From Pelagomonas calceolata (taxonomy: Eukaryota): DNA of 64,000 nt. Below, piece by piece: positions 935 to 56,692 of the stretch (position 1 is its first letter; each line of letters begins with the position of its first letter). Both the position numbers and the translations under genes were made by a program. Below the pieces are notes generated by a model, which made no database searches, had not been told where the DNA came from, and was given only the letters and a program-made list of their open reading frames with translations. Location: contig CAKKNE010000004.1 in NCBI GenBank assembly GCA_918797485.1, positions 5,208,001 to 5,272,000 on the forward strand, read 5' to 3'.

Positions 935-1058
935 GATCGAGTTAGGGAGCTACCTCCTCCCCTCCTGCTCCCGTCGTCCCCCAGGCTGCCCGTCCCCCCA
1001 GGCTCCGTGGCATCCTCTAATCGTCGTGTTGCATATCCATACTTGCTTCGGAACTCTT

Positions 1059-1080
1059 GCTAGTGTCTTACAGCGCTAGC
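1059..1080 (+). promoter_or_regulatory. Recurrent upstream motif GCTAGTGTCTTACAGCGCTAGC
   Basis: 55 bp upstream of ATG 1136; near-identical copies lie upstream of other genes. Confidence 0.55.
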
Positions 1081-1135
1081 ACACGCTCCTGAGCGCGGCT
1101 ACGCCAAGGACTCTGCAGCGCCGCTCCAAACTAAA

Positions 1136-8369: not shown

Positions 8370-9053
8370 CTAGTCGAGCCGCGCGAGCGCCTCCTCGACG
8401 GCGTCGATCGGTGCGGGCGTGCCCGTCTTCTCTTGGTACGAGTAGATGATTTTGCCGGACTTGTCCACGACCAGGACGCCGCCCAGGAGCAAGCCCTCGC
8501 CGACCATGTTGCCCTCGATGTTCTTCTCCTTCATGCGCCTCCCGACGTCCCGGAACGAGCGGATCGTGCGCCAGGGTAACAGCAAAGCCTTCAACGTGCC
8601 CCCGAGCGTCAAGAGGCGGCGGTTGCCCAGGTACGCGTAGAACGCCTTGTCCTCGTCCAGGTACAATTCGCTGCCCTTGAAGTAGTCCCGCTGGAACTCG
8701 CCGACGCCGAGGACCGTGTCGTTCGCCGCCTGTTTCGTGGGCGCCACCTCCTTGACGACGCCCACCAGTCGCTGCTTGCCGCCGCGGATCGCCACGAGCT
8801 CCGAGAGCCCCAGCGCCTCCTCGCGGCAGAGCGGTCAGCCCGGCCGCCGCACGACGAAGACCAGCGCGCCGTTGTCGCGCCAGAGCGAGGAGGCCTCAAT
8901 TGAGTTGCCGTTAATCGCACCGTTCTTGACCGGCCGCAGCGTCGTCGTCGCGAGGTCGGCGGCCGACATCACCACGCGTCTGCTGATCGACATCTGCCTG
9001 GCGGCGAGGCCCGCAGCGCCTGCTGCCAGCAGGGTGGTGCGGCTGAGGATCAT
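8370..9053 (-). CDS. Selenoprotein U / PRXL2A-like AhpC-TSA redoxin with Sec (UGA at 8835-8837)
   Basis: ORFs 8835-9173 and 8370-8795 are in one frame: VFVVRRPG-UGA-PLCREEA (UxxC), then GNMVGEGLLLGGVLVV; SECIS directly downstream. Confidence 0.88.
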
Positions 9054-9092
9054 CCTTGCAGCAGGCTGCTCAGTCAGTGAGTCCAGCCACCT

Positions 9093-9144
9093 GAGTCCTA
9101 GCACCGACGACCCCGTGCGAGTCCTAGCACCGACGACCCCGTGC
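9093..9144. repeat. Perfect 26-bp tandem duplication in the 5' leader
   Basis: GAGTCCTAGCACCGACGACCCCGTGC x2. Confidence 0.9.
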
Positions 9145-9232
9145 GGCAACTCGATGCGTCTCCTGGAGCACACCCACCCGCACGGATGACCCAGCTACGC
9201 CCAAGGTCGGCGCACCTACGCACGCGATTGCT

Positions 9233-9256
9233 GCTAGCGGCCTGTAACACACTAGC
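9233..9256 (-). promoter_or_regulatory. Recurrent upstream motif (GCTAGTGTGTTACAGGCCGCTAGC on minus)
   Basis: About 180 bp upstream of the minus-strand selenoprotein ATG, same orientation. Confidence 0.5.
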
Positions 9257-9501
9257 CTCGATTGCTTTTTGGCAAGTTTTTGCTGCTCAGCTGCCCAGAG
9301 GGTGGAACGCAGCTCAATTGCTCATAGCAGCACCTTATTGCTCGCAGCGTGACGCCTCGGAGGCGAGTTTCAAGCGATCCAACAATACCCCAATGCAGTC
9401 ACAAGGCCTGAACGCTGCTGGAGCCTCATAACAGCCTAAACGCCGTCGCTGCGCGAGCATACTCGCTGCAGAACACATTCGTCGCCGCGCGAGCACACCT
9501 G

Positions 9502-9957
9502 ATGGAGCGCCGCGCGATTCACGAGGACCCGGACGGCTACTACTTCCGGAGCCCAACCGGCAAGCTCTACGGGCCACTTTCAAGATTTCAGTTCGAGGCG
9601 TGGAGCATGCGCGGCGCGGTCGGGCCGGGCAGTAAGGTGTGGCGCCAGCAGGGCGCACACCACTATCGAGTCGAGATCTCACGGCGCCTCAAATGGCAGA
9701 AACTGCTCTCGGTGCGAAGCTGCGGCGCGATGAGCGACTGGCTCATGACGTTCATCAGCGTCGTCTCGCTTGTCTTCCTCTTCTCCCTCAAAAAGCTGCG
9801 CGACGACCTGCGGAAGGAGCTGCGGGGGCACGCGGCGACGGGCGTTTTCCTCTTTCTCTTGTTCGCCGCGACGGTCGTGCTGTCGGTGAGCGCGATGCGC
9901 AAGCTCTCGAAGCGCGTCGTCACCGAATCGACGGATATTTTCGACCACGAGGTCTAG
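9502..9957 (+). CDS. Small membrane protein with GYF_2/DUF4339-like N-terminus
   Basis: YYFRSPTGKLYGPLS..W...G.V.P.SKVWRQ pattern followed by two TM helices. Confidence 0.6.
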   Translation: MERRAIHEDPDGYYFRSPTGKLYGPLSRFQFEAWSMRGAVGPGSKVWRQQGAHHYRVEISRRLKWQKLLSVRSCGAMSDWLMTFISVVSLVFLFSLKKLRDDLRKELRGHAATGVFLFLLFAATVVLSVSAMRKLSKRVVTESTDIFDHEV

Positions 9958-10842: not shown

Positions 10843-11066
10843 TCACTTCTACTGCCAGGAGCAATCACAGAGCATCACTCGACTCAGGCGGAGGAGTCCC
10901 CTGATCAGATGGAGCACTCACCTGTGAGCACAGCGTTCACTCGACTCAGGCGGAGCAGTCACAGCGGTTGCGCACTCGCTGCAGTTTACAATGGACCTAC
11001 ACACAGTGCTTAGCGCCGGGGGTCGAAAGCAAAAACGAGCTAGTGCTCGAGACATACTAGCGACAA

Positions 11067-11130
11067 CCGGACGGGTCCGGGGGGAGCGGGAGGGGTACGG
11101 GGAACCCCGCGACGTAACTAGCCTGAGCCT
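11067..11130 (+). repeat. G-rich dispersed intergenic repeat, copy A
   Basis: CCGGACGGGTCCGGGGGGAGCGGGAGGGGTACGGGGAACCCCGCGACGTAACTAGCCTGAGCCT; inverted near-identical copy at about 40297-40364. Confidence 0.85.
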
Positions 11131-11258
11131 GAATCCTAAAATTAATCTGCGGGGCTTGTAGAGCCATGGTAATCCACGCACTAGTCCTAGCAACGGCCGA
11201 GAGTCAGTCACGGAACTTCTTAGGCGCGCGTTGGGGCCCACCGAGGAGAAGAGACACA

Positions 11259-16195: not shown

Positions 16196-16481
16196 TGGGC
16201 TCGCGTGCGAGCCCGAAGTGTTAATGAATTCAGTGTTCTTGCAAAATGTATCTTTTTATACGCCCTGGGTAGGTCTTTGACACACTAGAGATTCACTAGA
16301 GCCGGCTTGCGTGATGAGGCGGGAGCCCACTTTGGGAGGAGCCCGTCGCTCCATACCATTGAATTGCCCCTTTGCGGGGGCAGCCGCTTCGTGGGCGCAG
16401 CGCGCTCACGCCTCTGGAGGCAGGAACTCATTGCCTCTCCCAGGCAGCTTTTGTGGGCGCTAAGCAGCTCACGCCTCTAGG

Positions 16482-22959: not shown

Positions 22960-25142
22960 ATGAACGTGCGGCGCCCACCGGAAGCACCGGACGACCTGCG
23001 GCGCCGGCCCGGGAGGGCGTTCTCGTCGAAGTATGCCCTGGAGCTGCCACCGCCCGTCAGCGGCAGCTTCGCGACGCTCCCCCGGCGCCGCGCAGCGGTG
23101 GCGAAGAAGCAGGCGGAGCTCCGGCGCCAGGCGCTGGTCGAAGTTGCACTGGAGCGCCAGATCTGGCTCGAGAACGCGGAGAAGGACCGCATTGCGCGGA
23201 CCATCGTCCGCATCGCGCGGCGCCTGGACGGGGAGCGCCGGGCTGTGATTGCTCGGGAGGACGCGGCCTTCCGCGCCGGCGCGCGCGAGGCCGCCGTGGC
23301 GATCGAAACGTGCTGGCGCCGGCACGCGCGGTCGAGCGCCTGGCCGCGCGTCAAGGCCGCTTATTTTAGGGTCCTGGACGCGTGGGCGCAGCTGTACCGC
23401 GCCGCGCGCGAGGACGCGGCGCTGCGAGCGCGGCGACGGGCGGCGCGGGCACAGGTCGCGACGCCGCTCCAGACCCTGTGGCGCGCGCGCCTCGCGCGCC
23501 GCGAGCTGGCGCGGCGGCGACGCGCGCGCGACCTCATGACGAGATTCATCACTGAAGGAGTCATACCGCTCCAGACCAAGTGCCGCATGCTCCTCGCGCG
23601 CCGCGAGCTTTTACGGCGGCGGCGCGAGCTCGAGCGGCGGCGCCGCGCGGAGCGCGCGCGGCAGCAGGCCTACGTCATCGCGACGCGCGCGGTGCGGCGG
23701 TGGCTGCGGTGGCGGTTCCTCCAGAAGGTCCGGCGGTGCGTGCATCTCCACCTCGCGCGGCACCGGCTGCTGCAGCGATCCATGCAAACCGTCGCGAGCG
23801 CGGTCGCGCGACCGCCGGTCCGCGAGGCGGTCGCGCTCGTCGCGGTCGCAACTGCGTGCGCGGGCGCTTCCATGAGCGAGGCGGTCGCGGTCGCCGCGGA
23901 GCGGGAGCGCGTCGCCGAAGAGCAGCGCCGCTGGGAGGAGGAACTGCGACGCCAGATCGCCGCGGCCATCGAAGCGGCCAAGGCCCGCGTCGCGACGCCG
24001 CTCCAGACCCGGTTCCGCGCGCGGCGCGCGCGGCGGCGCTACGTCGCGATCTGTGTGGAAATCAAAATTTTACGGCGCGTAGGCGTCGCGTCGATGGCGT
24101 GGTGATGCCGGTTCCTCACACAGGTCGCGATGCGGGCCGCCGCGGTGCGCATCGCGGGCTGGCGGCGGCGGCTGGCCTGGGCGCGGTTGTGCGCGGCCGA
24201 GGCACGGCGGCGCGAGGAGGAACGGCAACGGCGCGCGCTGCAGGTGATCTGGAAGGTCGTCGTCCCGTGGCTGGCGCGGCGGGCGCTGCGATTTAAGAAG
24301 CGGCGCCTCGCGGTGCTGCGAGGGATGATCCGGGTCAAGGGCTACGCGCGGCGGCAGGCGACGCGCCAGGATCACTGGTGGGACCTGGCCGGCGAGCGCG
24401 CGCTCGACGTCGCCGGGGAGAGCTACCGGGCGGCGAAGGAGGCCGCTCGCCTCGCGACGGCCATGGCGCAGCACGCCGTCACGGTCTGTGTGGAAATCAA
24501 AATTTTACGGCGCGTTCGTGCTGAATCGCCGCGTCGTCCTCCACGCCATCGATGCGACGCCTGCTCGATGGCGTGGCGACGCCGGTTCCTCACTGCACGA
24601 CGGAGCCACCAAAGGTAGCGTCATCGCCGAGAAATGACGTAGTGAAGAATTATCGGGTGCACCCAACGCACTGGTTGATTTCCACACAGGTCACGGTGTG
24701 GAAACAGACCCAGGAGCTCGACCGCCGCCTGAACATGCTCATGATCGCGCGCGCGCAGCGCCTCGCCGCGCGGGCGGCGAAGCGGGTGCGCGAGATCGAC
24801 CTCAGCGGCGTCCCCAAGTTCTGCCGGACCCTGCCGCGCCGGTTCGCGCTGAAGCGCTTCGAGGACGAGCGGTTGCAGATCCTACAGCGGAGCACGCAAC
24901 GGGTCGCGTTCCTGAGGCAGCTCGCGGCCCGCGCGCCGAAGCCGGCCGAGGCCGCGCCCGCGCCCGTTTTCAAGCCGCGGTGGAAGAAGCCGCGGACACG
25001 GCCGCCACCGCCGGAGCCGGAACCGGCCGCGCCGCCCGCGCGACGAGCGACGCGGCTGCTCAGCGCCGTGCGGTGGGGGCGCATCCAGGCGGTGCACGCG
25101 GGGACGGCGCCGACGAGGCCTCCGCCGCCGCCGCCTTGCTGA
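22960..25142 (+). CDS. Arg-rich protein with IQ-like repeats; exons 22960-24042, 24124-24477, 24690-25142
   Basis: Repeated VATPLQTxxRARxARR motifs; three ORFs join exactly on removing two introners (629 aa). Confidence 0.75.
24051..24123 (+). mobile_element. Introner copy 5 (internally deleted); intron 24043-24123 GT-AG
   Basis: Perfect TSD GTCGCGAT at 24043-24050 and 24124-24131. Confidence 0.95.
24486..24689 (+). mobile_element. Full-length introner copy 6 (204 bp); intron 24478-24689 GT-AG
   Basis: Perfect 15-bp TIRs; perfect TSD GTCACGGT at 24478-24485 and 24690-24697. Confidence 0.97.
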
Positions 25143-25285
25143 AACGCCGAGTAATTTGAGATTGTTAGTGAACCTTGACACTACCGCACCACCCTGCACT
25201 GTTCCGGGTGAACCGAAATTGGTGAAGTGCACGTCAAACCCAAGCCGGTACGCAATCACAGCGGCGGACAAAACCCGTCCGTAGT

Positions 25286-25309
25286 GCTAGTGTCTTACAC
25301 GCCGCTAGC
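25286..25309 (+). promoter_or_regulatory. Recurrent upstream motif GCTAGTGTCTTACACGCCGCTAGC
   Basis: 116 bp upstream of ATG 25426. Confidence 0.55.
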
Positions 25310-25425
25310 TCGCGAAGCGCAAAAAAAAGCTCGCACAGCTCGCACAGAGCTCAGCACCCCAGCTTTGCTGCCTCGGGCTACAGCCGCACAGCTCGCGCAC
25401 AGCTCGCACTGGTCGTTTTGCAGCA

Positions 25426-26589
25426 ATGCCACCGCTTAAGCTAGTAGAGCTGGTCAAGCAGAGAGGACAGTCGTCGAGCACTACTGCTCGCAAGGCGTTC
25501 GTGAATGCTGCAGCCGCCACAGCTGCCAAAGAGCAGGGCAACAAATTACTGGCGCAAAATGACCTCTTAGCCGCGTACGCGCAATACTCCGCCGGCCTGG
25601 CGAGCGCCGACGCGAGCGACGCGGCAAAACTTTTCGGCAACCGCTCCGCCGCGGCGCTCAAGCTAGGCTGGCCCGACGCCGCGATCGAGGACGCCTGCGC
25701 CGCGGTTTCGGCGGACGTAACTTATGCGAGAGGTTGGTTCCGCCTGGCGGCCGCGCTCGTCGAGGCCGGCGATCCGCTCGCGACCGATGCGTGCGGGTAC
25801 GCCGCCGACCTGGCGCCGCGGGACCCGGGGCCGGCGCGGCTGTTCGAGCGCGCGCGCCACGAGGACGCGGAGCGCTACAAACCTGGGAAGGCGACGATGG
25901 TCGCCGTCGCCGTGGCGCCCGCGCCCGCGGAGACCGAGGAGACAGATGCCGCCGACGACAGCGACGCCAGCGACGGCGACGACGCGTCGGAGCGCGTCGT
26001 CAGCCTCGCCCTCGCGACGCGCACGCAAACGAGCGGCGGGACTGTGTGGGACGCGTCGGTCCTGCTGGCGTCGTGGCTCGCGACGGATCCAACGATCGTG
26101 CGGGGGCGCAACGTCCTGGAGCTGGGCGCTGGCTGCGGCGCCGTCGGCCTGAGCTGCGCGGCGCTCGGCGCCCGCCACGTGGCGCTGACTGATTTTGATG
26201 CCGGCGTCGTGGAACTGTTGAAGGAGAACGCGCGGAACAACTATCTCCGCGCGGGCTGCGACTGCTATGAGCTCGACGTGGCGAAGCCACCTACAGAGCC
26301 GCGTGCGGAATTCGACCTCGTGGTCGGCTCCGAGTGCGTGTACTACGGTGCCTGCGACGCCGTGCCGGCCCTTGTCGAGGCGTCAGTCGGCAAGGACGGT
26401 GACTTGTGCGGCGTTTTCTGCATGGCCGACTCGCGCGCCGGCATCGACGCGTTCGCGACCGCCGCGCGGAAGCGCTTCCGCTACGAGCGGCGGCCGTTCC
26501 CGCGGCCGCTCCGGCGCCGCGCGCGGCGGCTCAACGCCGAGCTCGCGGCCGAGAACACGTACAGCCTGCACCTCCTCTATCGCATGTAA
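25426..26589 (+). CDS. TPR domain + seven-beta-strand lysine methyltransferase (METTL21/Methyltransf_16)
   Basis: KEQGNKLL..GNRSAAALKLG TPRs; SGGTVWDASVLLA, VLELGAGCG, VALTDF, DLVVGSECVY. Confidence 0.88.
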   Translation: MPPLKLVELVKQRGQSSSTTARKAFVNAAAATAAKEQGNKLLAQNDLLAAYAQYSAGLASADASDAAKLFGNRSAAALKLGWPDAAIEDACAAVSADVTYARGWFRLAAALVEAGDPLATDACGYAADLAPRDPGPARLFERARHEDAERYKPGKATMVAVAVAPAPAETEETDAADDSDASDGDDASERVVSLALATRTQTSGGTVWDASVLLASWLATDPTIVRGRNVLELGAGCGAVGLSCAALGARHVALTDFDAGVVELLKENARNNYLRAGCDCYELDVAKPPTEPRAEFDLVVGSECVYYGACDAVPALVEASVGKDGDLCGVFCMADSRAGIDAFATAARKRFRYERRPFPRPLRRRARRLNAELAAENTYSLHLLYRM

Positions 26590-26590
26590 C

Positions 26591-26654
26591 CCGCTCCGGC
26601 GCCGGGCGCGGCGGCTCAATGCCGTATGGCCTGCACCTCCTCTATCGAATGTAG
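26591..26654 (+). repeat. Diverged tandem copy of the last exon segment (26506-26589)
   Basis: CCGCTCCGGCGCCG..CTGCACCTCCTCTATCG.ATGTA repeated right after the stop, with a 20-bp deletion. Confidence 0.85.
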
Positions 26655-26688
26655 TAATTGTACTTTTCTATCAACTTGAAAAGGGTCC

Positions 26689-28080
26689 TTATTCCTCTAG
26701 CCCGAGCGCCCGCCGCCGTTCGGCGTCGACCACGAGGATCGGAGTCGGCGGCGCGTCCCCGCGCTGGCGCGCAAGCCGCTCGGTGGCCTCGGTGACGTGG
26801 GCCAGCATGTCGTGGAGCGCGTTCGCGAAGATATGTTTCTGTGCTTTCATGTGGTGCTTGGCGCAGCCGCCCGGCGCGTCGGGGACGGACTCGTCGCCGT
26901 CCCGCTCCAGCGTGCGCAGGTGTTCGACGATCGCCTTCTGTGGCGTCAACCGGGGCGCGCACGCGTGCGCCCTGAGCGGGTCGGCGCCTGCGTCGAGCAG
27001 TGCCTTGACGACGGCGACCCGGCGCTGCGGCAGCTCCGGGTCGCTGCCGCCCGCGGGGCTCCGCCCGAGCCAGCAACATGGGCACAAAACGTCGCCGTCG
27101 TGCCAGACTCCACAACCCATTAATAACGGCGGCCCGACGGCGCGGCCCGCGTCGGGGTCCGCGCCGGCCGCCAGCAGGGCCTCGACGCCGCGCGCCGCGC
27201 CGTTGTGGACCACGTTCGACAGCGGACTGCTCGGGTCCGCGTCGCCGCCGCGAACATCGGCGCCGCGCGCGAGGAGCAACCTCAAGATCTTCATCGAAGC
27301 GTCCGAGTCGTCGGCGGCGTCGGCCCACGTCGTCAGCGCCGAGGGCAGGTACGCCTTGGACCGGTTCACGTCGACCTCGGGCCGGTCGGCGAGGACCCGG
27401 GCGCAGACGCTCGGCGCGAGCGTCCACTCGACGGCGCACGTCACGGCGAGGTACGGCGGCAGCGCCACGCACAGCTTCGCCAGCGCCGCGTTCACGTCCG
27501 GCGGCGCGCCCCGCCCCAGCTTCGTCGTCCAGTCGTTCGCCTCGCCGCGGCAGTGCACCGTCAGCGACTCGAGCTCCGGCAGCGCGCCGTGGCGCAGCGC
27601 GTCGGCCAGGCCGCCGAGGGCCTGCGCCACGACGCCCTCGGACTCGACGTCGCTCTGGAAGCTGCAGAAGAGGTCGATGACCTCCCAGGACCGCCGCGAC
27701 GCCGTCGCCAGGCCGGCGAGGTGCAGGAGCGCCTCGGGCGTCTCGATCGCGAGCGTCACCTGCCGCGCGCGGCTCAGGCGCAGCCAGACGGCGGGCTGCC
27801 AGAGCACGTGCCGGGCCTTGTCGCGGTCGGGCGCGTGCTCCGCGACCTTGCGCTGCTCGACGACCGAGAGGAAGGGCACGGCGTCGTTGAAGAGCTTGGC
27901 CACGCAGGTGTAGTACATGACGTGCTCGATGAGCAGGTGGTCGAGGATCGGCGCGACGAGCGACGGCCAGACGCGGCGGTTCAGGGGCCGCGGGTCCGCG
28001 ACGACCGCGGCGCGCTTGGGCGCGCGGCGGTGGCGCGCGCGCGGGCGTTTGTGGTCCTTTGTTTTGTTGGACTTGGGCAT
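26689..28080 (-). CDS. Ankyrin-repeat protein
   Basis: ILRLLLARGADV, GVEALLAAGADPD, VVKALLDAGADP. Confidence 0.8.
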   Translation of the reverse strand: MPKSNKTKDHKRPRARHRRAPKRAAVVADPRPLNRRVWPSLVAPILDHLLIEHVMYYTCVAKLFNDAVPFLSVVEQRKVAEHAPDRDKARHVLWQPAVWLRLSRARQVTLAIETPEALLHLAGLATASRRSWEVIDLFCSFQSDVESEGVVAQALGGLADALRHGALPELESLTVHCRGEANDWTTKLGRGAPPDVNAALAKLCVALPPYLAVTCAVEWTLAPSVCARVLADRPEVDVNRSKAYLPSALTTWADAADDSDASMKILRLLLARGADVRGGDADPSSPLSNVVHNGAARGVEALLAAGADPDAGRAVGPPLLMGCGVWHDGDVLCPCCWLGRSPAGGSDPELPQRRVAVVKALLDAGADPLRAHACAPRLTPQKAIVEHLRTLERDGDESVPDAPGGCAKHHMKAQKHIFANALHDMLAHVTEATERLARQRGDAPPTPILVVDAERRRALGLEE

Positions 28081-28320
28081 TGTTTGTTCGCCGACGGCGT
28101 CGGTGGGTTCTGCTGTGCCGTAGCAGTCTTTTTTGGCAGCGAGTGAAGTCTTGTTCGCCTCTTGACTTGGGTTCGGGGCGACTCGAAGTTGTGGTGTTGA
28201 GTACCACTAGACTGGTGTCGGTCTCCGCGAAGGCGCGCGAGCTGCCGGGTCTATGTTTGTGTTCGATAAATAGGCAATGGGCTGTCGGAGCTCATACGTT
28301 TTGCCTAATCCTAGGGCCAC

Positions 28321-28342
28321 CTAGCGTATGTAACACACTTGC
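28321..28342 (-). promoter_or_regulatory. Variant upstream motif (GCAAGTGTGTTACATACGCTAG on minus)
   Basis: About 240 bp upstream of minus-strand ATG 28080. Confidence 0.4.
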
Positions 28343-28506
28343 AATCTGCTCGAGCCGGGGCAAAGTAGCTACGAGCAGCCGCACGCGTCACGCCAGGACT
28401 CGTCAGACTCATTTGATCACTGCACCGTGCCCGGCTCGACTCGTCAGGCGCAGCAGCACTGCTCCTGTATCACTGCACCGTGCCCGGCGCGAGCTCTGGC
28501 AAAGCA

Positions 28507-29343
28507 ATGACCGATTACAAGAAGTGGGACCACCTCGACGTCTCCGACGACGACGACGGCGAGGACGCAGAGGACATCAAACGGCGCCACGCCGACGCCG
28601 TCGACGCGAAGCGCCGCGACGACCTGCGCACGGACGTCGAAAAAGCGATCTCGCGCCGCGCGCCGAATGCTGACGCTGCAGTGGTGGCGGCGTTCGTCTC
28701 GCAGCAGACGAAGGGCGCGGACGCTTTGGACAATCGGGCGCGGCACGTCCACGTCATCGAGGCACTGGCGCACCGGCCCGCTTTGCAGGAGGAGGCGACG
28801 ACCCGCGCGCTGTGCCGGCTCGCGCGGGAAGCGGCCGACACGGGCGACGTGGCCAAGGGGAAACTCTACCTCGAGGCGCTCAACACGCTGGAGGCGTGCC
28901 GCCGCTTTGGCGGGGCGCTTTCACTCTTCGAGCGCATCTGCGCGCCGGCCGACGAGGCGTCCAAGGAGCTGCGGCGGCTCTACTGCAAGGGCGCCTTCGG
29001 CGAGCTGCGGCTGAAGCGCTTCGTGTTCGAGCGCGTCGGCGAGGACCCGCAGATGGCGGCGGCGCTCGATAGACACGAGCGCGAGGTGCTGGCTAAAGTG
29101 CTGCCGCCGCCGCCGCCGCCGCCGCGACCACCGTCGGGGACGCGCTGGCTGTGGTGGCTCTGCGCGGGCGCTGGTATTGCCGCCGCGTCCTCGCGCGTCT
29201 TTGCGCCGCGCGCGGCCGCGCCGCCTCCTCCGGACCTGCAGGCCGAGGAGGAGGCTGAGCTTCTCCGGCAAATCGACGAGGACCAGAAACGCGTCGACGA
29301 GGCGCGGCGGCGGCTCGAGAGTATGCGGAAACGCGGGAGGTGA
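28507..29343 (+). CDS. Hypothetical protein with Cdc37-like N-terminal peptide and one hydrophobic segment
   Basis: MTDYKKWDHLDVSDDD resembles Cdc37 DYSxWDHIEVSDDED; the remainder is not Cdc37-like. Confidence 0.6.
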   Translation: MTDYKKWDHLDVSDDDDGEDAEDIKRRHADAVDAKRRDDLRTDVEKAISRRAPNADAAVVAAFVSQQTKGADALDNRARHVHVIEALAHRPALQEEATTRALCRLAREAADTGDVAKGKLYLEALNTLEACRRFGGALSLFERICAPADEASKELRRLYCKGAFGELRLKRFVFERVGEDPQMAAALDRHEREVLAKVLPPPPPPPRPPSGTRWLWWLCAGAGIAAASSRVFAPRAAAPPPPDLQAEEEAELLRQIDEDQKRVDEARRRLESMRKRGR

Positions 29344-30289: not shown

Positions 30290-33200
30290 TTACCCGTTCT
30301 CGAGCTCCACCGAGAGCCCGTCGTACGGCCCGAGCCCGTACATGTTCTCGAGCGTGTCGTCCGCACCGCCGCCGTTGGGGTCGAAGAGCCACGACAAAAA
30401 GTCGTAGAACTGGTACGCGTTGGCAAAATGACCAGCCGTCTGGCCGCCCTTGTTCTGGTGATTCGGGTTGGCGCCCTTCTCGACCAGGAGCTTCGCGATC
30501 TTGACGTTTCCGTTCTGGGCTGCTACGTGTAACATAGTGTTACCGTGTTCGTTCACCTTATTGAGATTGAACGTCTCACGTTCGTAGGCATCGACGTAGG
30601 CGGTACCAAAGTCTTCGACGTAGGGCACCTTGACGATGGCCGGGTCGAACTTCTTCTTGGCAATCGGCGCCAGCGCGTCCTTGAGGCGCGAGACCTTGCC
30701 GTGCCTTACTAAAGCCATGACCTGTGTGGACATCAAATTTACGGCGCGTTCGTCCTGAATCGCCGCGTCGACCTCCACGCCATCGACACCTGCTCGATGG
30801 CGTGGCGAAGTCGGTTCTTCACACAGGCCATTACCTCGTCGAAGTCGAGCGGCTTCTCCTCCTCCTCCGCCGCCTCCTCGCCCTCTGCAGCGCCGGTCTT
30901 CGAGTACTGGTCGAGCGGCGTCGCGCCCGCGGCGGCCACGCCGGTCTGGCCAGTCTGCATGAAGACGCGCATTTGCTTGTTCCTTTCTTGTTCGCTCGCT
31001 CTTAATTTGGTAGTCATGTTCAAAATCTTCTTCCGGTGTAAGCGGTGCTCGATACCTGTGAAAATCAAAATTTTACGGCGCGTTCGTGCTGAATCATCGC
31101 GTCATCCTCCACGCCATCGACGCGTCACCTGCTCGATGGCGTGGCGATGTCGGACACAGCTCAATACCTAACGTATTGCGCAAATCGTCATCGTCCAGAT
31201 CGTAGAGGAACGCGCCGTCGACTGCCGCGTCGACGAAGGCCTCGCGGTATTGGCCCAGCGACAGCGTCTGGAGCCATCTGGCGACGTCGTCAACCGACCA
31301 AGCAGAAACCTTCAACGTTTCCTGTCCTGGCATCTGGCCGGGCTTGAGCGACGGCTTGAAATCCTCGCCGCCGAGCTTGTCCTGGTAGGCCGTGGGCCCG
31401 CCCTCGATGCTCTGGGCCGGACCCGCGCCGCCCCCGCCGCCCATGGCCTGGTTCTGGTGGAGCGCCGCCATGACTGTGTCCTGCGTCGACACCGTGCGCA
31501 TCGCCCGGATCATGTTCAGCGACGAGAAGTAGGTCATGCTCATGGACATGAAGCCGAACTTCATGAGCGTCTCCGTCGACTGCATGAGCTGCGCCGCCTG
31601 CTTCTTCTCCGCCACCGAGGGGCCGGAATAACCGCCGCCGCCGCCTCCGCCCACACCGCCTGCCGTCGCCAAAGCCAGCGCGTTCGCGTCGCCCTTGCGC
31701 GCCTGCTCGAGGAGATCGCCCCGCGCCTCCTGTCGCCGTCTTATCTTGTGCAATTCGCGCTGCTGCTCCTCCAACAAGACGACGAGCTTGCGCTCGAGCG
31801 TCCGCAGTTGCTCCTCCTTGCCCTGGCGCGCATGGTCGAGCGTCGCGAGCTTCCCCTCCAGACCGCCCAGCTTCTCGCGCCGCTCCGCGATCTTCGCCAG
31901 CATCGCGCCGAACTCCCGGTCCAGCCGCATCTTCTGCTCCCTTAATTCATATTTTGCCTCCTCGTCGAGCACGCCGACGGCCTCGGCCTCGATCTTCGAC
32001 AGCTGGTGCATCTCCTTCTCGAGCTGCGCGACGCCCTGCTCGAACTCGGATATCTCCTCGAGCAGCGCCTCGACGCTCTCCTCGGCGGCGACCTTCTCCT
32101 GCGTCAGCAGCGACACCTCGCTCTGGAGCCGGGTCGCGTGGAGTTTGTGCTCCAAAAGCATTTGTCTCCCAAATTCGATGCCCTGCGACTGCGACTTCGA
32201 GAAGAGGAACTTGTGCCTCTCGTTTTGCGCCCGCCGTCTTCCGAGGTGTCCGCGGTACGCGCGCTCGACCGTCCGCGCCGCGTAGGAGCGGTTCCGCAGC
32301 TCGAACGTCGCGTAGCGCGCCGTCACCTGCCGCCAGAGCGTTTGAAGCATTGTGGCCGCCCGGTGCCGCCGCTGCTGCATGCCCTGGACCAGCAGCCGCG
32401 CCAGCAAGCCGCGTGCGGTCCGTTGCATCTGCGCCGCCGCCGCGTGCCTGTGCACAAATCAACCAGTGAGTCGAGTGCACGACGGGAACGCGGTCGTGCT
32501 GACTCGGTCGAGCGGTGAGGAACCGGCACCGCCACGCAGTCGAGCAGGCGTCGCGTCGATGGCGTGGAGGTCGACGCGACGATTCGAAGGCGCCGTGAAA
32601 TTTCATTGATGCACAGCGACGTGCATCGTCTTCAGAAGGGTAAAGAAGCCCCTGCCGCTAAAGCCGCGCCAGGCCCGCTGGATGACGTGCGCCGCCCAGA
32701 TCTGCCGCATCTTCACGAGGAAGGCCTGGCGCCCGCGCCAGCCCCGGTAGGCCCGCTGCAGCATGACCGTCGCGCGCTCCTCGCGCAGCCGCCGCACGAC
32801 GGTCCACGCGAGGTGGTTCCGGAAGCAGGCCTGGATCGTCTTCGCGGCGAACTCGAGGCGCTGGAGCCGCTTCTTGTTCCGTTTCAAGCGCCAGGCCATG
32901 TACTCCTTGACCTCGGGGTACTCCTGCGGGTTCGGGTAGATGTGCGAGCCCTCGCCGGGCTTGTAGACGACGTTGTCCTGGCGCTCGAAGGCCGGGTTCC
33001 GCGGGTCGAGGACCGTCTTGAGCGGCGCGTCGTCGCGGCGCTTCCGCGTCTTCACGGACGCGAGCGGGTCCTCGGCCTCGGCCGCGGCGCGCCGCCGGCC
33101 CAGCGCCGCGCCCGCGCGCTCCGCCGACAGGTTCGAGAAGTGGACCCAGTCCGGGTCCCCGTACGCCGCGTTGTGCCCTATTTTGGAGTCGCGCACCTTG

Positions 33201-40296: not shown

Positions 40297-40364
40297 AGGC
40301 TGAGGCTAGTTACGTCGCAGGGTTCCCCGTACCCCTCCCGCTCCCCCCGGGCCCACCCGTCCGG
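40297..40364 (-). repeat. G-rich dispersed intergenic repeat, copy B
   Basis: Reverse complement matches 11067-11130 apart from one short indel and two substitutions. Confidence 0.85.
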
Positions 40365-40377
40365 CTGGATCACAAAT

Positions 40378-40399
40378 CTAGTGTGTTGATCACGCTAGC
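40378..40399 (+). promoter_or_regulatory. Variant upstream motif CTAGTGTGTTGATCACGCTAGC
   Basis: About 240 bp upstream of ATG 40641. Confidence 0.4.
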
Positions 40400-40640
40400 T
40401 GCCGCTTTTTTCAGCCGCCGGCCCAGCTCCGCGTGGCCTACCTACGCCCTCCTGATCGGCAGCGCTACGAGGATAGTCTCTTCCCTTCAGATAGTCGCTG
40501 TGCCCCGCTCCCGGAGTCGCCAAAAATCTGCTCTAGAGCATCTCAGAGCAAATTCCACGGCAAACCCTTGGACGCGTTGCGAGGTCGCCAGCACTACATT
40601 AATTCTTAATCGGCTTATCACGCCAGCGCAAGCTCGCGCA

Positions 40641-44389: not shown

Positions 44390-44597
44390 GTAACTAAGTG
44401 AATTGTGAACATCGGCTCGGAGATGCGGGCTCGTGTCGACGGCGTGGGGTGAGGTCATCTGCATTCCTAAACGCGCGGGAGCCGCGGGTGGCCACCCGGA
44501 TGTCACACCCGGCACAGAGCGAGCGAATTCCTCGCAAAGAGCGCTTCAATTTGTTGCTGAGAGTGTGGCCAGTTATAGACGGGTGCACGAACAAGTT

Positions 44598-44623
44598 GCT
44601 AGTGTGTCTATAGGGACGCTAGC
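44598..44623 (+). promoter_or_regulatory. Variant upstream motif GCTAGTGTGTCTATAGGGACGCTAGC
   Basis: 200 bp upstream of ATG 44824. Confidence 0.45.
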
Positions 44624-44823
44624 TTAATATCGAGTGCTTGCGCACTCGGGGGCGAGGATCGTGCGCGTGCGTTGGGAGGGCCTTCTGTTGAAGGCAAAGA
44701 AAGCTGAGGACTGGCCAATAACGTATAGCGAGCCAGCACTCCCCAAGGCTGTGCCGTCCGCGCTGCTATTGGAGTGACTCTGGGGCACTGAAAAGAACCC
44801 GCGGCGCGGCGTAAGGAAAAAAA

Positions 44824-49909: not shown

Positions 49910-50369
49910 GGTCTAATGTCTGGCGTTCGTTCCAGCGTTCGTTCCTTCCTCACTGCGCGGTCCGCGTAACAGCAGCCTCCTGGGCAGGCGGCAAAGTCTG
50001 TAGATCGTCCACCAAAGCACGGGAAACTGTCACGCGCTTGAATTGTAGCGAAGGGATATATTTAAACCAACTTGGACTTGAACGGGCGGCTTTTTGGTTG
50101 CCTCCAGGCCGTTTTTGATCAAATCTTCACTTTTTTCTAGTATGTCTTTCGACGCTAGATTTAGCGCGCCGCGCCTCAGCGTTTGCCGCGCGCAGATCGT
50201 GCGCAGAGCGTGCAGTTGATAGCGCATCGCACTGCTGCAATCGCGTCGTCTCGCTTGCACGCCATCGACTGCTCCCAGGCCCAGCGGCACAGCTTCAAAG
50301 TTGGACCATTGCGTGAGAGCGCAGCTCCTTGCACGCCATCGACGCGCTTTTATGCAAGACTACCAAGCC

Positions 50370-52509: not shown

Positions 52510-54065
52510 CTAGGAGGAACTAGGCATATCGTCCGAGTCGTGCAGGTAGCCGGTCACGTTCCGCGACGCGCGCACCAGCTCGACGCCGCGCGTCGCGTAC
52601 CACTCGGCCATCTCTGTCCTGGCCTTGGACGCCGCGCTGTCGGAGTACGACTTCGTCCACGCGTCCCTCCGGCCGGGGAGGCCGTGCGACGCGCGGAACA
52701 CGTCCACGACGCCGGCCGCGAACTTTTCACCCCGCAAAGAGCAATAGCCGGGCAGCCAATCCGGGTAGCCGTAGCCCTCCGCGTTCATCTCGACGTCCGC
52801 CAAGTCGTGGAAACAGTGATAGGCATTGGGGGTGAACGCCGTCGCGAAGAGCTCTACTTTCGCCACGCGTCGACCGACGGCGCCGTTCGTGAGCTTCTGT
52901 GGCCTGTGCACAAATGAATCAGTGATTCGGGTGCGCCGCGACAATTTGATTCATGCACTGATCGAGGCCGCATCTCCGGGAAGCGGCGGCCGTGGGCCCT
53001 GCGGATCGCCGGCGACGCGACGTCCAGGTCGTTGCGGGCCGCGATCCGGAAAAAAGGCTTGGCGTCGAACTCGCCGGCGAAGAGCCGCACGTCGTCTAGT
53101 ACAACCTAGGTAGAAATCAAAATTCACCTCGACTGCTCGATGGCGCGGCGGTGCCGGTTCATCACCACTCGACGGAGCCAGGACGGCCGCGAGCACCCGG
53201 CTCACTGGTTGATTTCCACACAGATCACGACGAAGACCCACCGCACGCCCAGCGCCTGGACGTGCGCCGGCAGGACGAACTTGAGCTGCGCCACGTAGCC
53301 GCCCGTCCCCTTCGTCGGCACGCGCGGCACGTCGCACGCCTCGCTCAGGTAGGGCCTGCGTGCAAGTCGACCGGTGAGGCAAGCGCCGCGAAATTTGTCT
53401 TTGCGCGCTGGGTCGGGCAGGCGCGGGCCGTCCTCCTCCCCGTCGATGGGGCCGTCGATGGCCTCGTCGAGGTCGGGGTCGTCGCCGCAGCGCTGCCACG
53501 TCGGCACGATGCAGGCGCGGGGGCGGAGCATCGCCCAGTTGCGCCGCGCGACCTGCACGCGCCCGGCGTCCAGCAGCCCCGGCACGACCAGCAGCACGTC
53601 GAGCGCGCCGGCGTCGACGACCGGCCGTCGCGCGGACGCGGCGCAGCGCCGCGTCGCCGCCGCCTTGCGCTCGGCGGCGTCGACCGTCGGCCGGGGCGTC
53701 GGCCGTGGCGTCGGGCTCGGAGTTGGCGTGTTGAGCGCGACCGGCGCCGGCGTCCGCTTCGTCCGGCGCCGGCGCCGCCCCTCGCCTCCCTGGCACGTGC
53801 CGATGCCGTACGCGGCGCGCCACGCCTTCTTAAAGTTGCAGTCGTCGTCGACATCGCACTCCCTGTCCTGGTTCGTGCACCTGCCCTTCTTGCGCGGCGT
53901 GGCCGGCGCGGCGGCCGGCAGCGGAACACCGCCGGCAGAAACACCATCCCCGGACGGTTCGGCGCCCGCGAACGGCAAGGTCAGGAGCTCTTTGAGTGAC
54001 TGTGCGCTGGCCTGCAGCAGGAGCGCTGCGGCGGACACCACTTTGAGCAAGGCAGCGCCCCGCAT
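52510..54065 (-). CDS. Secreted protein, possibly DUF707/glycosyltransferase-like; exons 54065-53419, 53355-53232, 53105-52969, 52903-52510
   Basis: Signal peptide MRGAALLKVVSAAALLLQASA; spliced 433 aa with VFVVLDD, VASPAI, VELFATAF..C..GYG pattern. Confidence 0.65.
52904..52960 (-). mobile_element. Degenerate introner copy 10; intron 52968-52904 GC-AG
   Basis: CTGTGCACAAATGAATCAGTG..AATTTGATTCATGCACTG; splice joins PEMR to PQKLTNG. Confidence 0.78.
53106..53223 (-). mobile_element. Introner copy 11; intron 53231-53106 GT-AG
   Basis: Intact TIR TTGATTTCCACACAG, other end CTAGGTAGAAATCAA; splice gives WVF VVLDD. Confidence 0.9.
53356..53410 (-). mobile_element. Old introner copy 12; 63-nt in-frame intron 53418-53356 GC-AG
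   Basis: TSD GGTAGGGC / GGTCGGGC (7/8); ends CTGCGTGCAAGTCGACCGGTGAG and GCGCCGCGAAATTTG resemble copy 9. Confidence 0.72.
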
Positions 54066-54187
54066 CGCTGCCCAAACGCTTTGAGGGGCAGCCTCGCTTT
54101 GAGGGGCAGCCAAAATCGATTAGCAGTCGTACGATCCGGCCCGATTAGCCCGATTTTTCGGGCGGAATCCGGCCGCGGGCCCGATTT

Positions 54188-54207
54188 GCTAGTGTCTTAC
54201 AGCTAGC
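54188..54207 (+). promoter_or_regulatory. Recurrent upstream motif GCTAGTGTCTTACAGCTAGC
   Basis: In a divergent promoter, 160 bp upstream of ATG 54368. Confidence 0.55.
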
Positions 54208-54367
54208 TTTAGCAGCCCAGCGGCCAAAAGGAGTGGACTCTGCGGCTTTTTAAGGACCGTCACGCCGGAAACGGGAGCGTTGGGCTGCCTGAACCCCCCC
54301 CCCAAACCCTCTGAGATCCCTGACGAGCACGAGAGCCACACACCTCCCGGGAGCCCTTGGGGTGGTG

Positions 54368-54764: not shown

Positions 54765-56321
54765 TTACCTTCTAGTAAGAACGCCGACACAAATGCGCTC
54801 GAGCCGGTCCGCGAAGGCGTCGAGCGAAAACAAGTCCCGGACCCGCTCGCGGCCGCGCTCCCCCATGGCCCGCCGCCCCGCCGCGTCGCCGAGGAGGTCG
54901 GCGACGGCCCGGGCCCAGGTTTGGGGATCGGGCGCCAGGAGCCGCCCGGTCACGCCGTCGACGACGGACTCGCGCGGCCCGCCCGAGTCCACGGCGACGA
55001 CGGGCGTGCGCGCGTGCATCGCCTCGAGCGGCACGATGCCGAAGTGCTCGTTCTCCGGCCTGTGTTGCAGCGTGAGGCCCCGCGTCGATGGCGTTTGCAG
55101 GGGACGCCGCGTCCGCGCGTATACAGCAGGCACGCGCAGCGCGCGAGGAGCCGCGCCTTCTCGTCGCCGGAGACGGACCGGCGCTGCGTGACGCGGTCCG
55201 CGACGCCGAGCCGCGCGGCCAGCTCCTCGAGCTCGCGCGCGTGCTCGACGTTCTCCGGCAGGTCGGGGTCGTAGCCCCCCGCGAGCACGAGGCGGACGCG
55301 CGGCGGCAGCAGCGCGAGCGCCTCGACGGCCAGGCCCAGGTTCTTCTTCCGCTCGAAGCGGTTGATCGAGAGGAGCAGCGCCGCGTCCCGCGGCGCCTCC
55401 GCCACCTCGGCGTCAAGGCTCAGGGGCGGGTAGAGCACCTCGGGCGCCACGGCGAGCCGGGGGAACGCCCGGCGGAAGACGCCCGCCGTGAACCGCGAGT
55501 TCACGAGCACCTGTGTGGAAATCAAAATTTTACGGCGCGTTCGTGCTGAACCGTCGCGTCGTCCTCCACGCCATCGACGCGACGCCTGCTCGATGGCGTG
55601 GCGGTGCCGGTTCGTCACCGCTCGACGGAGCCGGCACGGCCGCGTCATCGCCGAGAAATGACTTAATGAAGAATTTTCGGGTGCACCCGACGCACTGGTT
55701 GATTTCCACACAGACGAGCACGACGTCCGCGAGGCCCGTGCACGTCTCCTCGCCCCAGTCCAGCGGCGCGCGGTAGAGGCGCGTGAGCGGGTTTTGTCGG
55801 TTCACGCAGAGCAGTTTGTCCGGGTAGTGGCAGTAGAAGACGACCGGCGCGGCGCACGCCGCCCGGGCGACGGGCACGGCCGTCGCGACCTGGTCCACGA
55901 CGACGACGTCCGGGCCGTCGCGCGCGGCGCGCAGCGCGACCGCGACCATCCGCACCGAGGCGCAGAGCGCGTAGCACCTTCCGAGAATCCGCTTCGGCAG
56001 CCAGTCGCCGGCGACGACGACGCGCAGCGTGCCGTCGCGGGTCTCGTCGAAGCAGCGCCGCGGGTCGTGCCGCGCCGTGTAGATCGTCACGTCGTGGCCC
56101 CGGCCCCGCAGGCCGAGCGCCGCGTCGACGACGAGCCGCTCCGCGCCGCCGATGCCGAGGTCCGGGTGGGCGAAGGCGACGCGCAGCTTGCCTTGGCGTG
56201 GTTTTGGTCGTCGGCGGCGACGCCTTACGAGTCGTATGAGCAGCATTGCGGCTGCTGCAGCGGCCAGCAGGAGCCAAGTTAGCTGGCAGCGGTGTAATGC
56301 TTTCTTGCACAGCAGAGACAT
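54765..56321 (-). CDS. ALG2: Alpha-1,3/1,6-mannosyltransferase ALG2; exons 56321-55722, 55510-55119, 55059-54765
   Basis: HPDLGIGGAERLVVDAA, FYCHYPD, VLVNSRFT, SINRFERKKN, LLYTPENEHFGIVPLEAM, SGGPRES. Confidence 0.95.
55060..55110 (-). mobile_element. Highly degenerate introner copy 13; intron 55118-55060 GC-AG
   Basis: Retains CTGTG end and CGCGTCGATGGCGT core; removal restores conserved YTPENEHFG. Confidence 0.7.
55511..55713 (-). mobile_element. Full-length introner copy 14 (203 bp); intron 55721-55511 GT-AG
   Basis: Perfect 15-bp TIRs; perfect TSD ACGAGCAC at 55503-55510 and 55714-55721. Confidence 0.97.
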
Positions 56322-56418
56322 TGCAGCTTTGCTCTGTGGTTCGCTGGCGGTCCAGAACGTCTTCCGACGCCCTCTTTTACAGCTTTGCAGCGCGTACGCT
56401 CCGTGCTCCAAAGAGGCT

Positions 56419-56442
56419 GCTAGCGTCATGTAAGACACTAGC
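56419..56442 (-). promoter_or_regulatory. Recurrent upstream motif (GCTAGTGTCTTACATGACGCTAGC on minus)
   Basis: About 100 bp upstream of the ALG2 ATG, same orientation. Confidence 0.55.
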
Positions 56443-56692
56443 TTGCAAGCGGCGGGCTAGGCTAGGGCGGCTTTTGAGACGCACGGCCGTCCAGAGCTCC
56501 GTGTAGAACTCTGCAGCCGTTTAGACATTTCCACTGTTGCCACTAATCATCGCAGCCAGCGCTTTTCGCGTGCCGTGGCGAGTACTAGACAAAATCCGGC
56601 AGTGGCAGATTTTCAGCAGTGTGGGGCGGACGCGTAGATTCTGCGCACGCGCATAGCGTCTAAGTTTAGCAACGAGAAACACCAAGACAACA

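What the first reader, a model, noticed from the sequence alone, without database searches (positions are those of the whole stretch)
1059..1080. Oriented upstream motif GCTAGTGT(C/G)TTACA-n-GCTAGC shared by many genes
Seen at 1059(+), 9233(-), 25286(+), 54188(+) and 56419(-), with looser variants at 28321(-), 40378(+), 44598(+) and 11039. The copies I found are intergenic, 55-240 bp upstream of a start codon, and point in that gene's direction. Four copies share an identical 14-mer GCTAGTGTCTTACA, which is AT-rich for this genome. The genes are functionally unrelated, suggesting a general core-promoter or nucleosome-excluding element. I do not know of a description of it.
Basis: partly seen in the sequence, partly recalled or inferred. 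Interest (0 to 1): 0.7.

Follow-up and report, generated by a model that had tools for sequence, protein, structure and literature searches.

The report
Two-way promoter hub motif in Pelagomonas
A roughly 28-base DNA word sits about 175 bases before many gene starts in an abundant ocean alga (by gene order, Pelagomonas calceolata), facing either way, with RNA starting outward on both sides at the two copies tested; it is likely the docking site of an unidentified protein that opens promoters.

Summary
The motif is real and longer than reported: about (GCTT)GCTAGTGT(C/G)TTACA-N(0-5, usually 4)-GCTAGC(T). The window holds 5 exact 14-mers plus 1 one-mismatch copy against 0.14 expected, and 10 strong two-block sites against 0.03. 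Gene order matches Pelagomonas calceolata chromosome 4. A metagenome scan gave 126 distinct sites, nearly all with unrelated flanks and none in coding DNA. Sites are tied to gene starts (median about 175 bp from the ATG) and avoid convergent gaps. They are NOT oriented: a start lies to the right at 45 of 60 informative sites and to the left at 49 of 59. Stranded RNA-seq at two sites shows RNA running outward on both sides with little or none across the motif, including antisense RNA at a tandem gap. No transposon flanks, target duplications or consistent hairpin were found. Best reading (0.65): a pseudo-palindromic binding site at the centre of bidirectional promoters, working like yeast Abf1/Reb1 or human ZNF143 sites. 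The protein is unknown, nucleosome phasing was inconclusive, and no description was found in print.

The parts
1055..1081 (+). Full motif (the finding's copy); tandem gap, 55 bp before the Sly1/Sec1 ATG at 1136
9232..9260 (-). Full motif, G variant; divergent gap 8969-9502
11038..11065 (-). Degenerate motif (20.8 bits); tandem gap before the nucleoside hydrolase gene
16267..16293 (-). Left half-site only (8.7 bits overall); tandem gap, facing away from the myosin ATG at 16482
25282..25310 (+). Full motif; tandem gap. Plus-strand mRNA starts to its right, antisense poly(A) RNA runs leftward into the 3' end of the upstream + gene
25012..25303 (-). Upstream antisense RNA whose 5' end lies in the bin 25158-25303 (146-nt resolution)
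   Evidence: minus-strand RNA depth 3-7 in all 4 runs, 0 in 25304-25449; coding strand here is +
28319..28346 (-). One-mismatch motif between divergent genes (ATGs at 28080 and 28507). Minus RNA estimated to start near 28265, plus RNA near or after 28365
40373..40400 (+). Degenerate motif (27.8 bits); tandem gap before a ubiquitin-conjugating enzyme gene
44594..44624 (+). Degenerate motif (30.5 bits); tandem gap before the CBM20-trehalose phosphate synthase gene
50132..50160 (+).
54184..54208 (+). Full motif with the shortest spacer; nearest confident gene start is on its left (- strand gene)
56418..56446 (-). Full motif; divergent gap between a GT4 glycosyltransferase gene and a coiled-coil gene

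Best explanation
The motif is a roughly 28-bp, orientation-independent promoter element of Pelagomonas that lies between outward-facing RNA starts at the two copies tested, and it is likely the binding site of an abundant sequence-specific factor that would keep the promoter open for initiation on both sides. Shown: two inverted half-sites GCTAG(T/C)G around an asymmetric core TCTTACA with a variable gap of 0-5 nt; position in start-containing gaps, about 175 bp from the ATG on either side; short T-tracts within 30 bp; divergent RNA at 2 of 2 sites tested. Inferred: that a protein binds it (probably as a dimer or a two-module complex, given the dyad and variable gap), that binding displaces nucleosomes, and that RNA polymerase II starts some 20-60 bp outside each edge, giving a second mRNA or an antisense RNA. 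The protein is unknown. An AP2-domain factor is a lead only (about 0.2).
For: Excess over chance. 126 distinct sites, with only a few homologous flank pairs. The scan recovered consensus letters it did not ask for: upstream G 0.63, C 0.54, T 0.76, T 0.79; 4-nt spacer G 0.57, G 0.84, C 0.70, C 0.98; downstream C 0.87. None of 126 sites is in coding DNA (own coding model, 261 of 265 chunks right in leave-one-out). Two-sided sites: 23 divergent, 11 tandem, 1 convergent; P = 0.016 against the window's convergent length share of 0.16. ATG distance: median 173-177 bp, and 5 of 54 under 100 bp, against 9 of 21 stop codons under 100 bp. Starts on the right 45 of 60, on the left 49 of 59, P = 0.37. Two homologous 5' regions carry the motif at about the same distance in opposite orientation (L021, L048). 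RNA-seq switches strand at both sites. Outward-reading TTTT starts in 6-13% of sites per 10-bp bin within 30 bp, against mostly 1-3% beyond. Composition profiles are mirror-symmetric left and right. Known parallels: yeast Abf1/Reb1/Rap1 with poly(dA:dT) direct nucleosome-depleted regions (PMC3642058, passages read); the 18-bp ZNF143 site drives transcription in both directions (PMC3082894, passages read).
Against: There are no binding, accessibility or mutagenesis data. RNA evidence covers two sites, in 146-nt bins, from four runs of one sample; poly(A) RNA-seq ends are not mapped start sites. Eukaryotic promoters are bidirectional in general (PMC6602560, passages read), so divergent RNA does not show that the motif causes it. 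No motif-free gap was laid as a control. Eleven of 21 start-containing gaps in the window lack a strong copy. In the window alone, 5 of 6 tandem copies point at the gene, and the absence from convergent gaps is not significant after length correction (P = 0.17). The CG oscillation that first suggested phased nucleosomes is matched by anchoring on the ATG and gives no peak near 185 bp in a periodogram. The core letters of the metagenome set were fixed by my search pattern, so their conservation is not evidence.
Confidence: 0.65

Rival explanations
1. It is the relic of a mobile element (terminal remnant or excision footprint) that favoured promoters, and may or may not have been recruited as a regulatory site.
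For: It is unusually long and uniform for a binding site; GCTAG at both ends resembles a fixed target duplication; the genome carries active-looking introner elements (PMC9481584, passages and supplement passages read); the flipped pair L021/L048 could be two independent insertions.
Against: Flanks 300 bp either side are unrelated except for a few homologous pairs and small separate repeats. There is no excess of flanking direct repeats of 3-8 nt over re-paired controls (116 sites). It does not match the introner ends seen in the window. A random promoter insertion would not explain the tight ATG distance.
Confidence: 0.12
2. It is an oriented core-promoter element (Inr/TATA-like) that sets the start site and direction of one gene.
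For: The core TCTTACA is asymmetric; 5 of 6 tandem copies in the window point at the gene; T-tracts are somewhat stronger on the right.
Against: In the independent set, tandem sites are 2-6 co-oriented against 8-9 anti-oriented across four score thresholds, and ATG distances are the same on both sides. RNA starts lie outside it on both sides. No fixed-position base signal was seen 5-100 bp from it.
Confidence: 0.08
3. It is a boundary element (roadblock terminator or insulator), or a replication-origin element, whose place near starts follows from the compact genome.
For: It can lie as close as 12 bp to a stop codon; yeast Reb1 and Rap1 also act as roadblocks (PMC6602560, passage read).
Against: It avoids convergent gaps, where termination is most needed, and is commonest in divergent gaps, where no transcript runs in. 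Nothing here tests origin function.
Confidence: 0.08
4. It works as DNA structure (hairpin/cruciform or intrinsic nucleosome exclusion) without a specific protein.
For: The ends form an inverted repeat; 5 of 8 copies fold better than shuffles (z -2.1 to -3.3).
Against: Folding energies are weak (-1 to -7.4 kcal/mol), and 3 of 8 copies, including two exact ones, are no better than shuffles. The loop sequence is conserved, which a hairpin would not need. The base after the right CTAG departs from C in 13% of sites with no compensation.
Confidence: 0.05
5. It is a spliced-leader relic or a 5'-UTR element carried on mRNAs.
For: It is a constant 20-30-nt word upstream of unrelated ATGs (resemblance to dinoflagellate leader relics recalled, from no call).
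Against: It has no orientation. Plus-strand RNA depth is 0 in all four runs in the bin that holds the first 22 bases of the + copy at 25282. No joints or loose ends were listed (one further loose end was not shown by the tool). Rfam gave no match in the window and 19 loci.
Confidence: 0.02

Closest known systems
Yeast general regulatory factor sites (Abf1, Reb1, Rap1, Tbf1, Rsc3) in nucleosome-depleted promoters (PMC3642058, PMC6602560; passages read)
   Same: Many copies at promoters of unrelated genes, short dA:dT tracts nearby, divergent coding or antisense RNA from the flanks.
   Different: Unrelated sequence, longer and pseudo-palindromic. Binding and nucleosome exclusion are not shown here. 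Rap1 represses divergent transcription, whereas antisense RNA is present at site 25282.
Human Staf/ZNF143 binding site (SBS) (PMC3082894; passages read)
   Same: A long (18 bp there) element over-represented in divergent promoters and able to drive transcription in both directions.
Toxoplasma GCTAGC element bound by AP2XI-5 (PMC13734140; passages read)
   Same: [quoted passage not shown] P. calceolata has AP2-domain genes (17 PF00847 entries in the stored, cut part of the gene table).
   Different: A lone 6-bp palindrome tied to a late cell-cycle programme in a distant lineage, against a 28-bp two-part element here. A 6-bp match can be chance.
Oomycete core promoter elements INR, FPR and DPEP (PMC3599244; abstract and outline read)
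   Same: Genome-wide promoter motifs of a stramenopile; the combined INR+FPR block is 16-19 nt.
   Different: They lie at or just after the start site; this motif lies outside the RNA and has no orientation.

Membership tests
General-regulatory-factor-type promoter site | Many copies, at promoters of unrelated genes, outside coding DNA | tested here: met
General-regulatory-factor-type promoter site | Positioned at a restricted distance from gene starts, in either orientation | tested here: met
   ATG median 173-177 bp, IQR about 138-222; right 45 of 60, left 49 of 59
General-regulatory-factor-type promoter site | Transcription starts on its flanks, often both ways | tested here: met
   2 of 2 sites, 146-nt bins, one sample; no motif-free control
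General-regulatory-factor-type promoter site | Phased nucleosomes flanking a depleted region | tested here: inconclusive
   sequence proxy only: positive, not specific to the motif
General-regulatory-factor-type promoter site | Bound by a sequence-specific protein that excludes nucleosomes | not testable with these tools
   needs EMSA, pull-down, ATAC or MNase
Oriented core-promoter element (Inr/FPR/DPEP/TATA type) | Strand-specific relative to the gene | tested here: not met
   flipped pair
Oriented core-promoter element (Inr/FPR/DPEP/TATA type) | Fixed short distance to a base-resolved start site | not testable with these tools
   no CAGE data; one search gives bins only
Transposon end or MITE | Shared internal sequence beyond the terminal word | tested here: not met
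   all-against-all of 300-bp flanks
Transposon end or MITE | Variable target-site duplication | tested here: not met
   no excess for k = 3-8
Transposon end or MITE | Empty orthologous sites | tested here: inconclusive
   too few homologous pairs, and those found were selected for carrying the motif
Toxoplasma AP2XI-5 GCTAGC element | GCTAGC hexamer upstream of gene starts | tested here: met
   right half-site is GCTAGC in 87% of 126 sites
Toxoplasma AP2XI-5 GCTAGC element | Bound by an AP2-domain protein | not testable with these tools
   AP2 genes exist in the species table; binding unknown
Spliced-leader relic | Same strand as the gene and present on mRNA 5' ends | tested here: not met

The most novel reading that the evidence does not exclude
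Pelagomonas runs up to about half of its RNA polymerase II gene starts from one lineage-specific 28-bp hub, read by a single dimeric factor or complex (possibly AP2-domain, convergent with apicomplexans). The hub would set both start sites by distance rather than by core-promoter sequence, could be inverted in evolution without loss of function, and would make antisense RNA wherever no gene lies on the far side.
Probability: 0.25. Interest if true: 0.75.

Novelty: new member of a known kind. Interest (0 to 1): 0.52.

Why it matters
[quoted passage not shown] In this window 14 of 31 gene starts share a gap with a strong copy (counted), which extrapolates to a few thousand sites if the window is typical. 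A word this long can be used at once to locate promoters, to pull down its protein, and to build compact two-way expression cassettes for an alga with few genetic tools. It would also add a stramenopile case to the question of how different eukaryotic lineages specify open promoters.

Tried and rejected
No whole genome was held, so there is no genome-wide count. A first matrix run locked onto the reverse strand of the search seeds and was discarded; one search masks them, but trains on only 18 sites, 10 of them from the window, so window scores are inflated relative to the shuffles. Nucleosome phasing: a CG-dinucleotide profile anchored on the motif exceeded jitter controls (amplitude P < 0.001 and 0.002), but on 36 sides ATG anchoring did as well (P 0.008 against 0.034) and a periodogram showed no peak near 185 bp, so it is not claimed. 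Inversion of a larger segment between L021 and L048: only the motif and a few nearby bases align in reverse, so inversion and independent gain cannot be told apart. Hairpin function, target duplications and Rfam families gave nothing. Viral contigs: 0 matches. Prokaryote genomes: 6 matches in 596 billion bases. Five are in marine MAGs, four of them near contig ends, and carry spacer or flank letters like the algal consensus, which I read as algal contamination; one looks like chance. Resemblance of the core to LTR 3' ends and of CTAG to Helitron ends is recalled, from no call, and was rejected because the flanks are not shared. The papers on linker CG methylation and on introners in Aureococcus were not held, so nothing is taken from them. 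Earlier findings of this scan held nothing on this genome or motif. Reads were laid on one 4.4-kb stretch only.

Full report
Source. The window is 68.8% G+C, gene-dense and eukaryotic. Its proteins' nearest named relatives are pelagophytes. The order Sly1, nucleoside hydrolase, and then adjacent CBM20-trehalose phosphate synthase and ICMT matches Pca_4p27680, 27740, 27890 and 27900 in the gene table of the Pelagomonas calceolata genome paper (PMC9481584, supplementary rows seen). I therefore take it as P. calceolata chromosome 4. No whole genome was held.

Observation. The 14-mer is at the stated places: 5 exact copies and 1 with one mismatch, against 0.14 expected. A two-block matrix finds 10 sites of at least 18 bits against 0.03 in 40 locally shuffled windows (trained partly on these sites).

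Independent sites. Gap lengths among the 128 were 4 nt in 88, 3 in 24, 2 in 10, 5 in 5 and 0 in 1. Letters the pattern did not ask for were strongly biased, which extends the word to about (GCTT)GCTAGTGTCTTACA(GGCC)GCTAGC(T). Read on both strands, its ends are inverted half-sites GCTAG(T/C)G around an asymmetric core. Flanks were unrelated apart from a few homologous pairs and small separate repeats. Of 10 neighbouring proteins looked up, 4 fall in clusters with a named P. calceolata member (91-99.8% identical); the other 6 showed no species name among the members listed. Homologous flank pairs at 84-89% identity both carry the word, so it spans at least diverged lineages or paralogues; these pairs were selected by the pattern. 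It is absent from viral contigs and almost absent from 596 billion bases of prokaryote genomes. Whether other pelagophyte genera have it was not testable.

Position and orientation. I trained a coding model on 24 window genes (strand right in 261 of 265 held-out chunks). None of the 126 sites is in coding DNA. At the main threshold 35 had a gene on both sides: 23 divergent, 9 tandem facing away from the start, 2 tandem facing it, 1 convergent. After dropping 4 near-duplicate sites (122 left), a gene start lies to the right at 45 of 60 informative sites and to the left at 49 of 59; 38 sites had no gene within reach, mostly because only 300-bp flanks were held. Across four thresholds the tandem counts were 2-6 facing against 8-9 away. 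ATG distances were the same on both sides (medians 177 and 167 bp), and ATGs rarely lie within 100 bp whereas stops often do (5 of 54 against 9 of 21; significant at three of four thresholds). In the window, 4 of 10 divergent, 6 of 11 tandem and 0 of 10 convergent gaps hold a strong copy. L021 and L048 share a homologous 5' region and carry the motif about 92 bp beyond it in opposite orientations.

RNA. Four stranded poly(A) runs, all of one sample, were laid on 24720-29090. At the + copy 25282-25310, plus-strand RNA has depth 0 in 25158-25303 and 3-11 in 25304-25449, while minus-strand RNA has depth 4-7 and 0 in the same two bins, in all four runs. The upstream coding gene is on the + strand, so the leftward RNA is antisense. 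At the - copy 28319-28346, bin ratios put the minus-strand start near 28265 and the plus-strand start near or after 28365. The motif thus lies between outward-facing RNAs at both sites. These are bin-level estimates from read coverage, not mapped start sites, and no motif-free gap served as control.

Surroundings. Outward-reading T-tracts are several-fold enriched within 30 bp on both sides, more on the right; A-tracts are slightly raised too. No fixed-position base signal appears 5-100 bp away. Left and right composition profiles mirror each other, but this can follow from the step from UTR to coding DNA at similar distances, and a nucleosome-length period was not shown.

Mechanism. The pattern fits a protein-bound element at the centre of a short open region with initiation at both edges, as described for yeast Abf1/Reb1/Rap1 promoters (PMC3642058, PMC6602560; passages read) and for the human ZNF143 site (PMC3082894; passages read). 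Position, symmetry and flanking RNA are shown; binding, nucleosome exclusion and causation are inferred. The dyad and variable gap suggest a dimer or two modules. The right half-site equals the GCTAGC element of Toxoplasma AP2XI-5 (PMC13734140; passages read) and P. calceolata has AP2-domain genes, but this is a lead, not a test. A transposon origin is not excluded. Shared flanks and target duplications were looked for and not found, and empty sites could not be tested.

What is in print. Five spellings of the motif matched no paper among about 8.4 million held. Topic searches listed no pelagophyte promoter study. The words 'motif' and 'promoter' do not occur in the main text of the genome paper, the pangenome preprint 10.1101/2024.10.30.620910 or PMC13284251; I saw term searches and passages, not the whole texts. 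The genome paper's supplements showed no such description; one file was pictures only and one was cut. Subscription papers, figures with logos and bioRxiv supplements were not visible and may hold a description.

Verdict. A real, abundant and apparently undescribed promoter element. It works like known promoter-centre binding sites; membership awaits a bound protein. New member of a known kind; interest 0.52.

Noticed in passing
window 11179-11192 (-); L007:219, L043:2180, L052:1879, L073 (2 copies), L079 (2 copies): A separate oriented word TGCTAGGACTAGTG lies 17-159 bp after a same-strand predicted gene end in 8 of 8 hits: a candidate 3'-end or terminator element.
   Followed up: partly
window 40297-40359 (+) and 11068-11130 (-); L020, L046: A roughly 63-bp repeat (92% alike in the window) lies 42-131 bp after a stop and just upstream of the main motif in the same orientation.
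   Followed up: partly
L008, L014, L065, L087: A third short repeat, GGAGCCCTGGAAGCCG, lies within about 110 bp of the main motif, in two cases 56-73 bp from a gene end on the opposite strand.
   Followed up: partly
window about 1-190, 291-470, 24030-24120, 24486-24710, 30720-30830, 31036-31175, 32488-32600, 53090-53260, 55493-55730, 61312-61362: A family of about 200-bp repeats with inverted ends that interrupt genes, consistent with the introner elements reported for this species (PMC9481584).
   Followed up: partly
window 25012-25303 (-): Antisense poly(A) RNA over the 3' end of the upstream + gene exceeds its sense RNA there (sense depth 0 in 25012-25157 in all four runs).
   Followed up: partly
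window 12276, 12426, 22215: Lone GCTAGC hexamers in two divergent gaps that lack the full motif; possible half-sites.
   Followed up: no
L015:1246-1304, L087, L040, L042: Paired copies: back-to-back within about 10 bp (L015), tandem about 65 bp apart (L087), and two per contig within 0.5-1.4 kb.
   Followed up: no
L125, L126, L128, L129, L130: Five bacterial or archaeal marine MAGs in the genome collection hold one stretch each that looks algal and carries the motif, probably mis-binned or chimeric contigs.
   Followed up: partly
L031:745-940 and L059:93-287: About 200 bp of non-coding-looking DNA just downstream of the motif is 87% alike in two loci; no Rfam match.
   Followed up: partly
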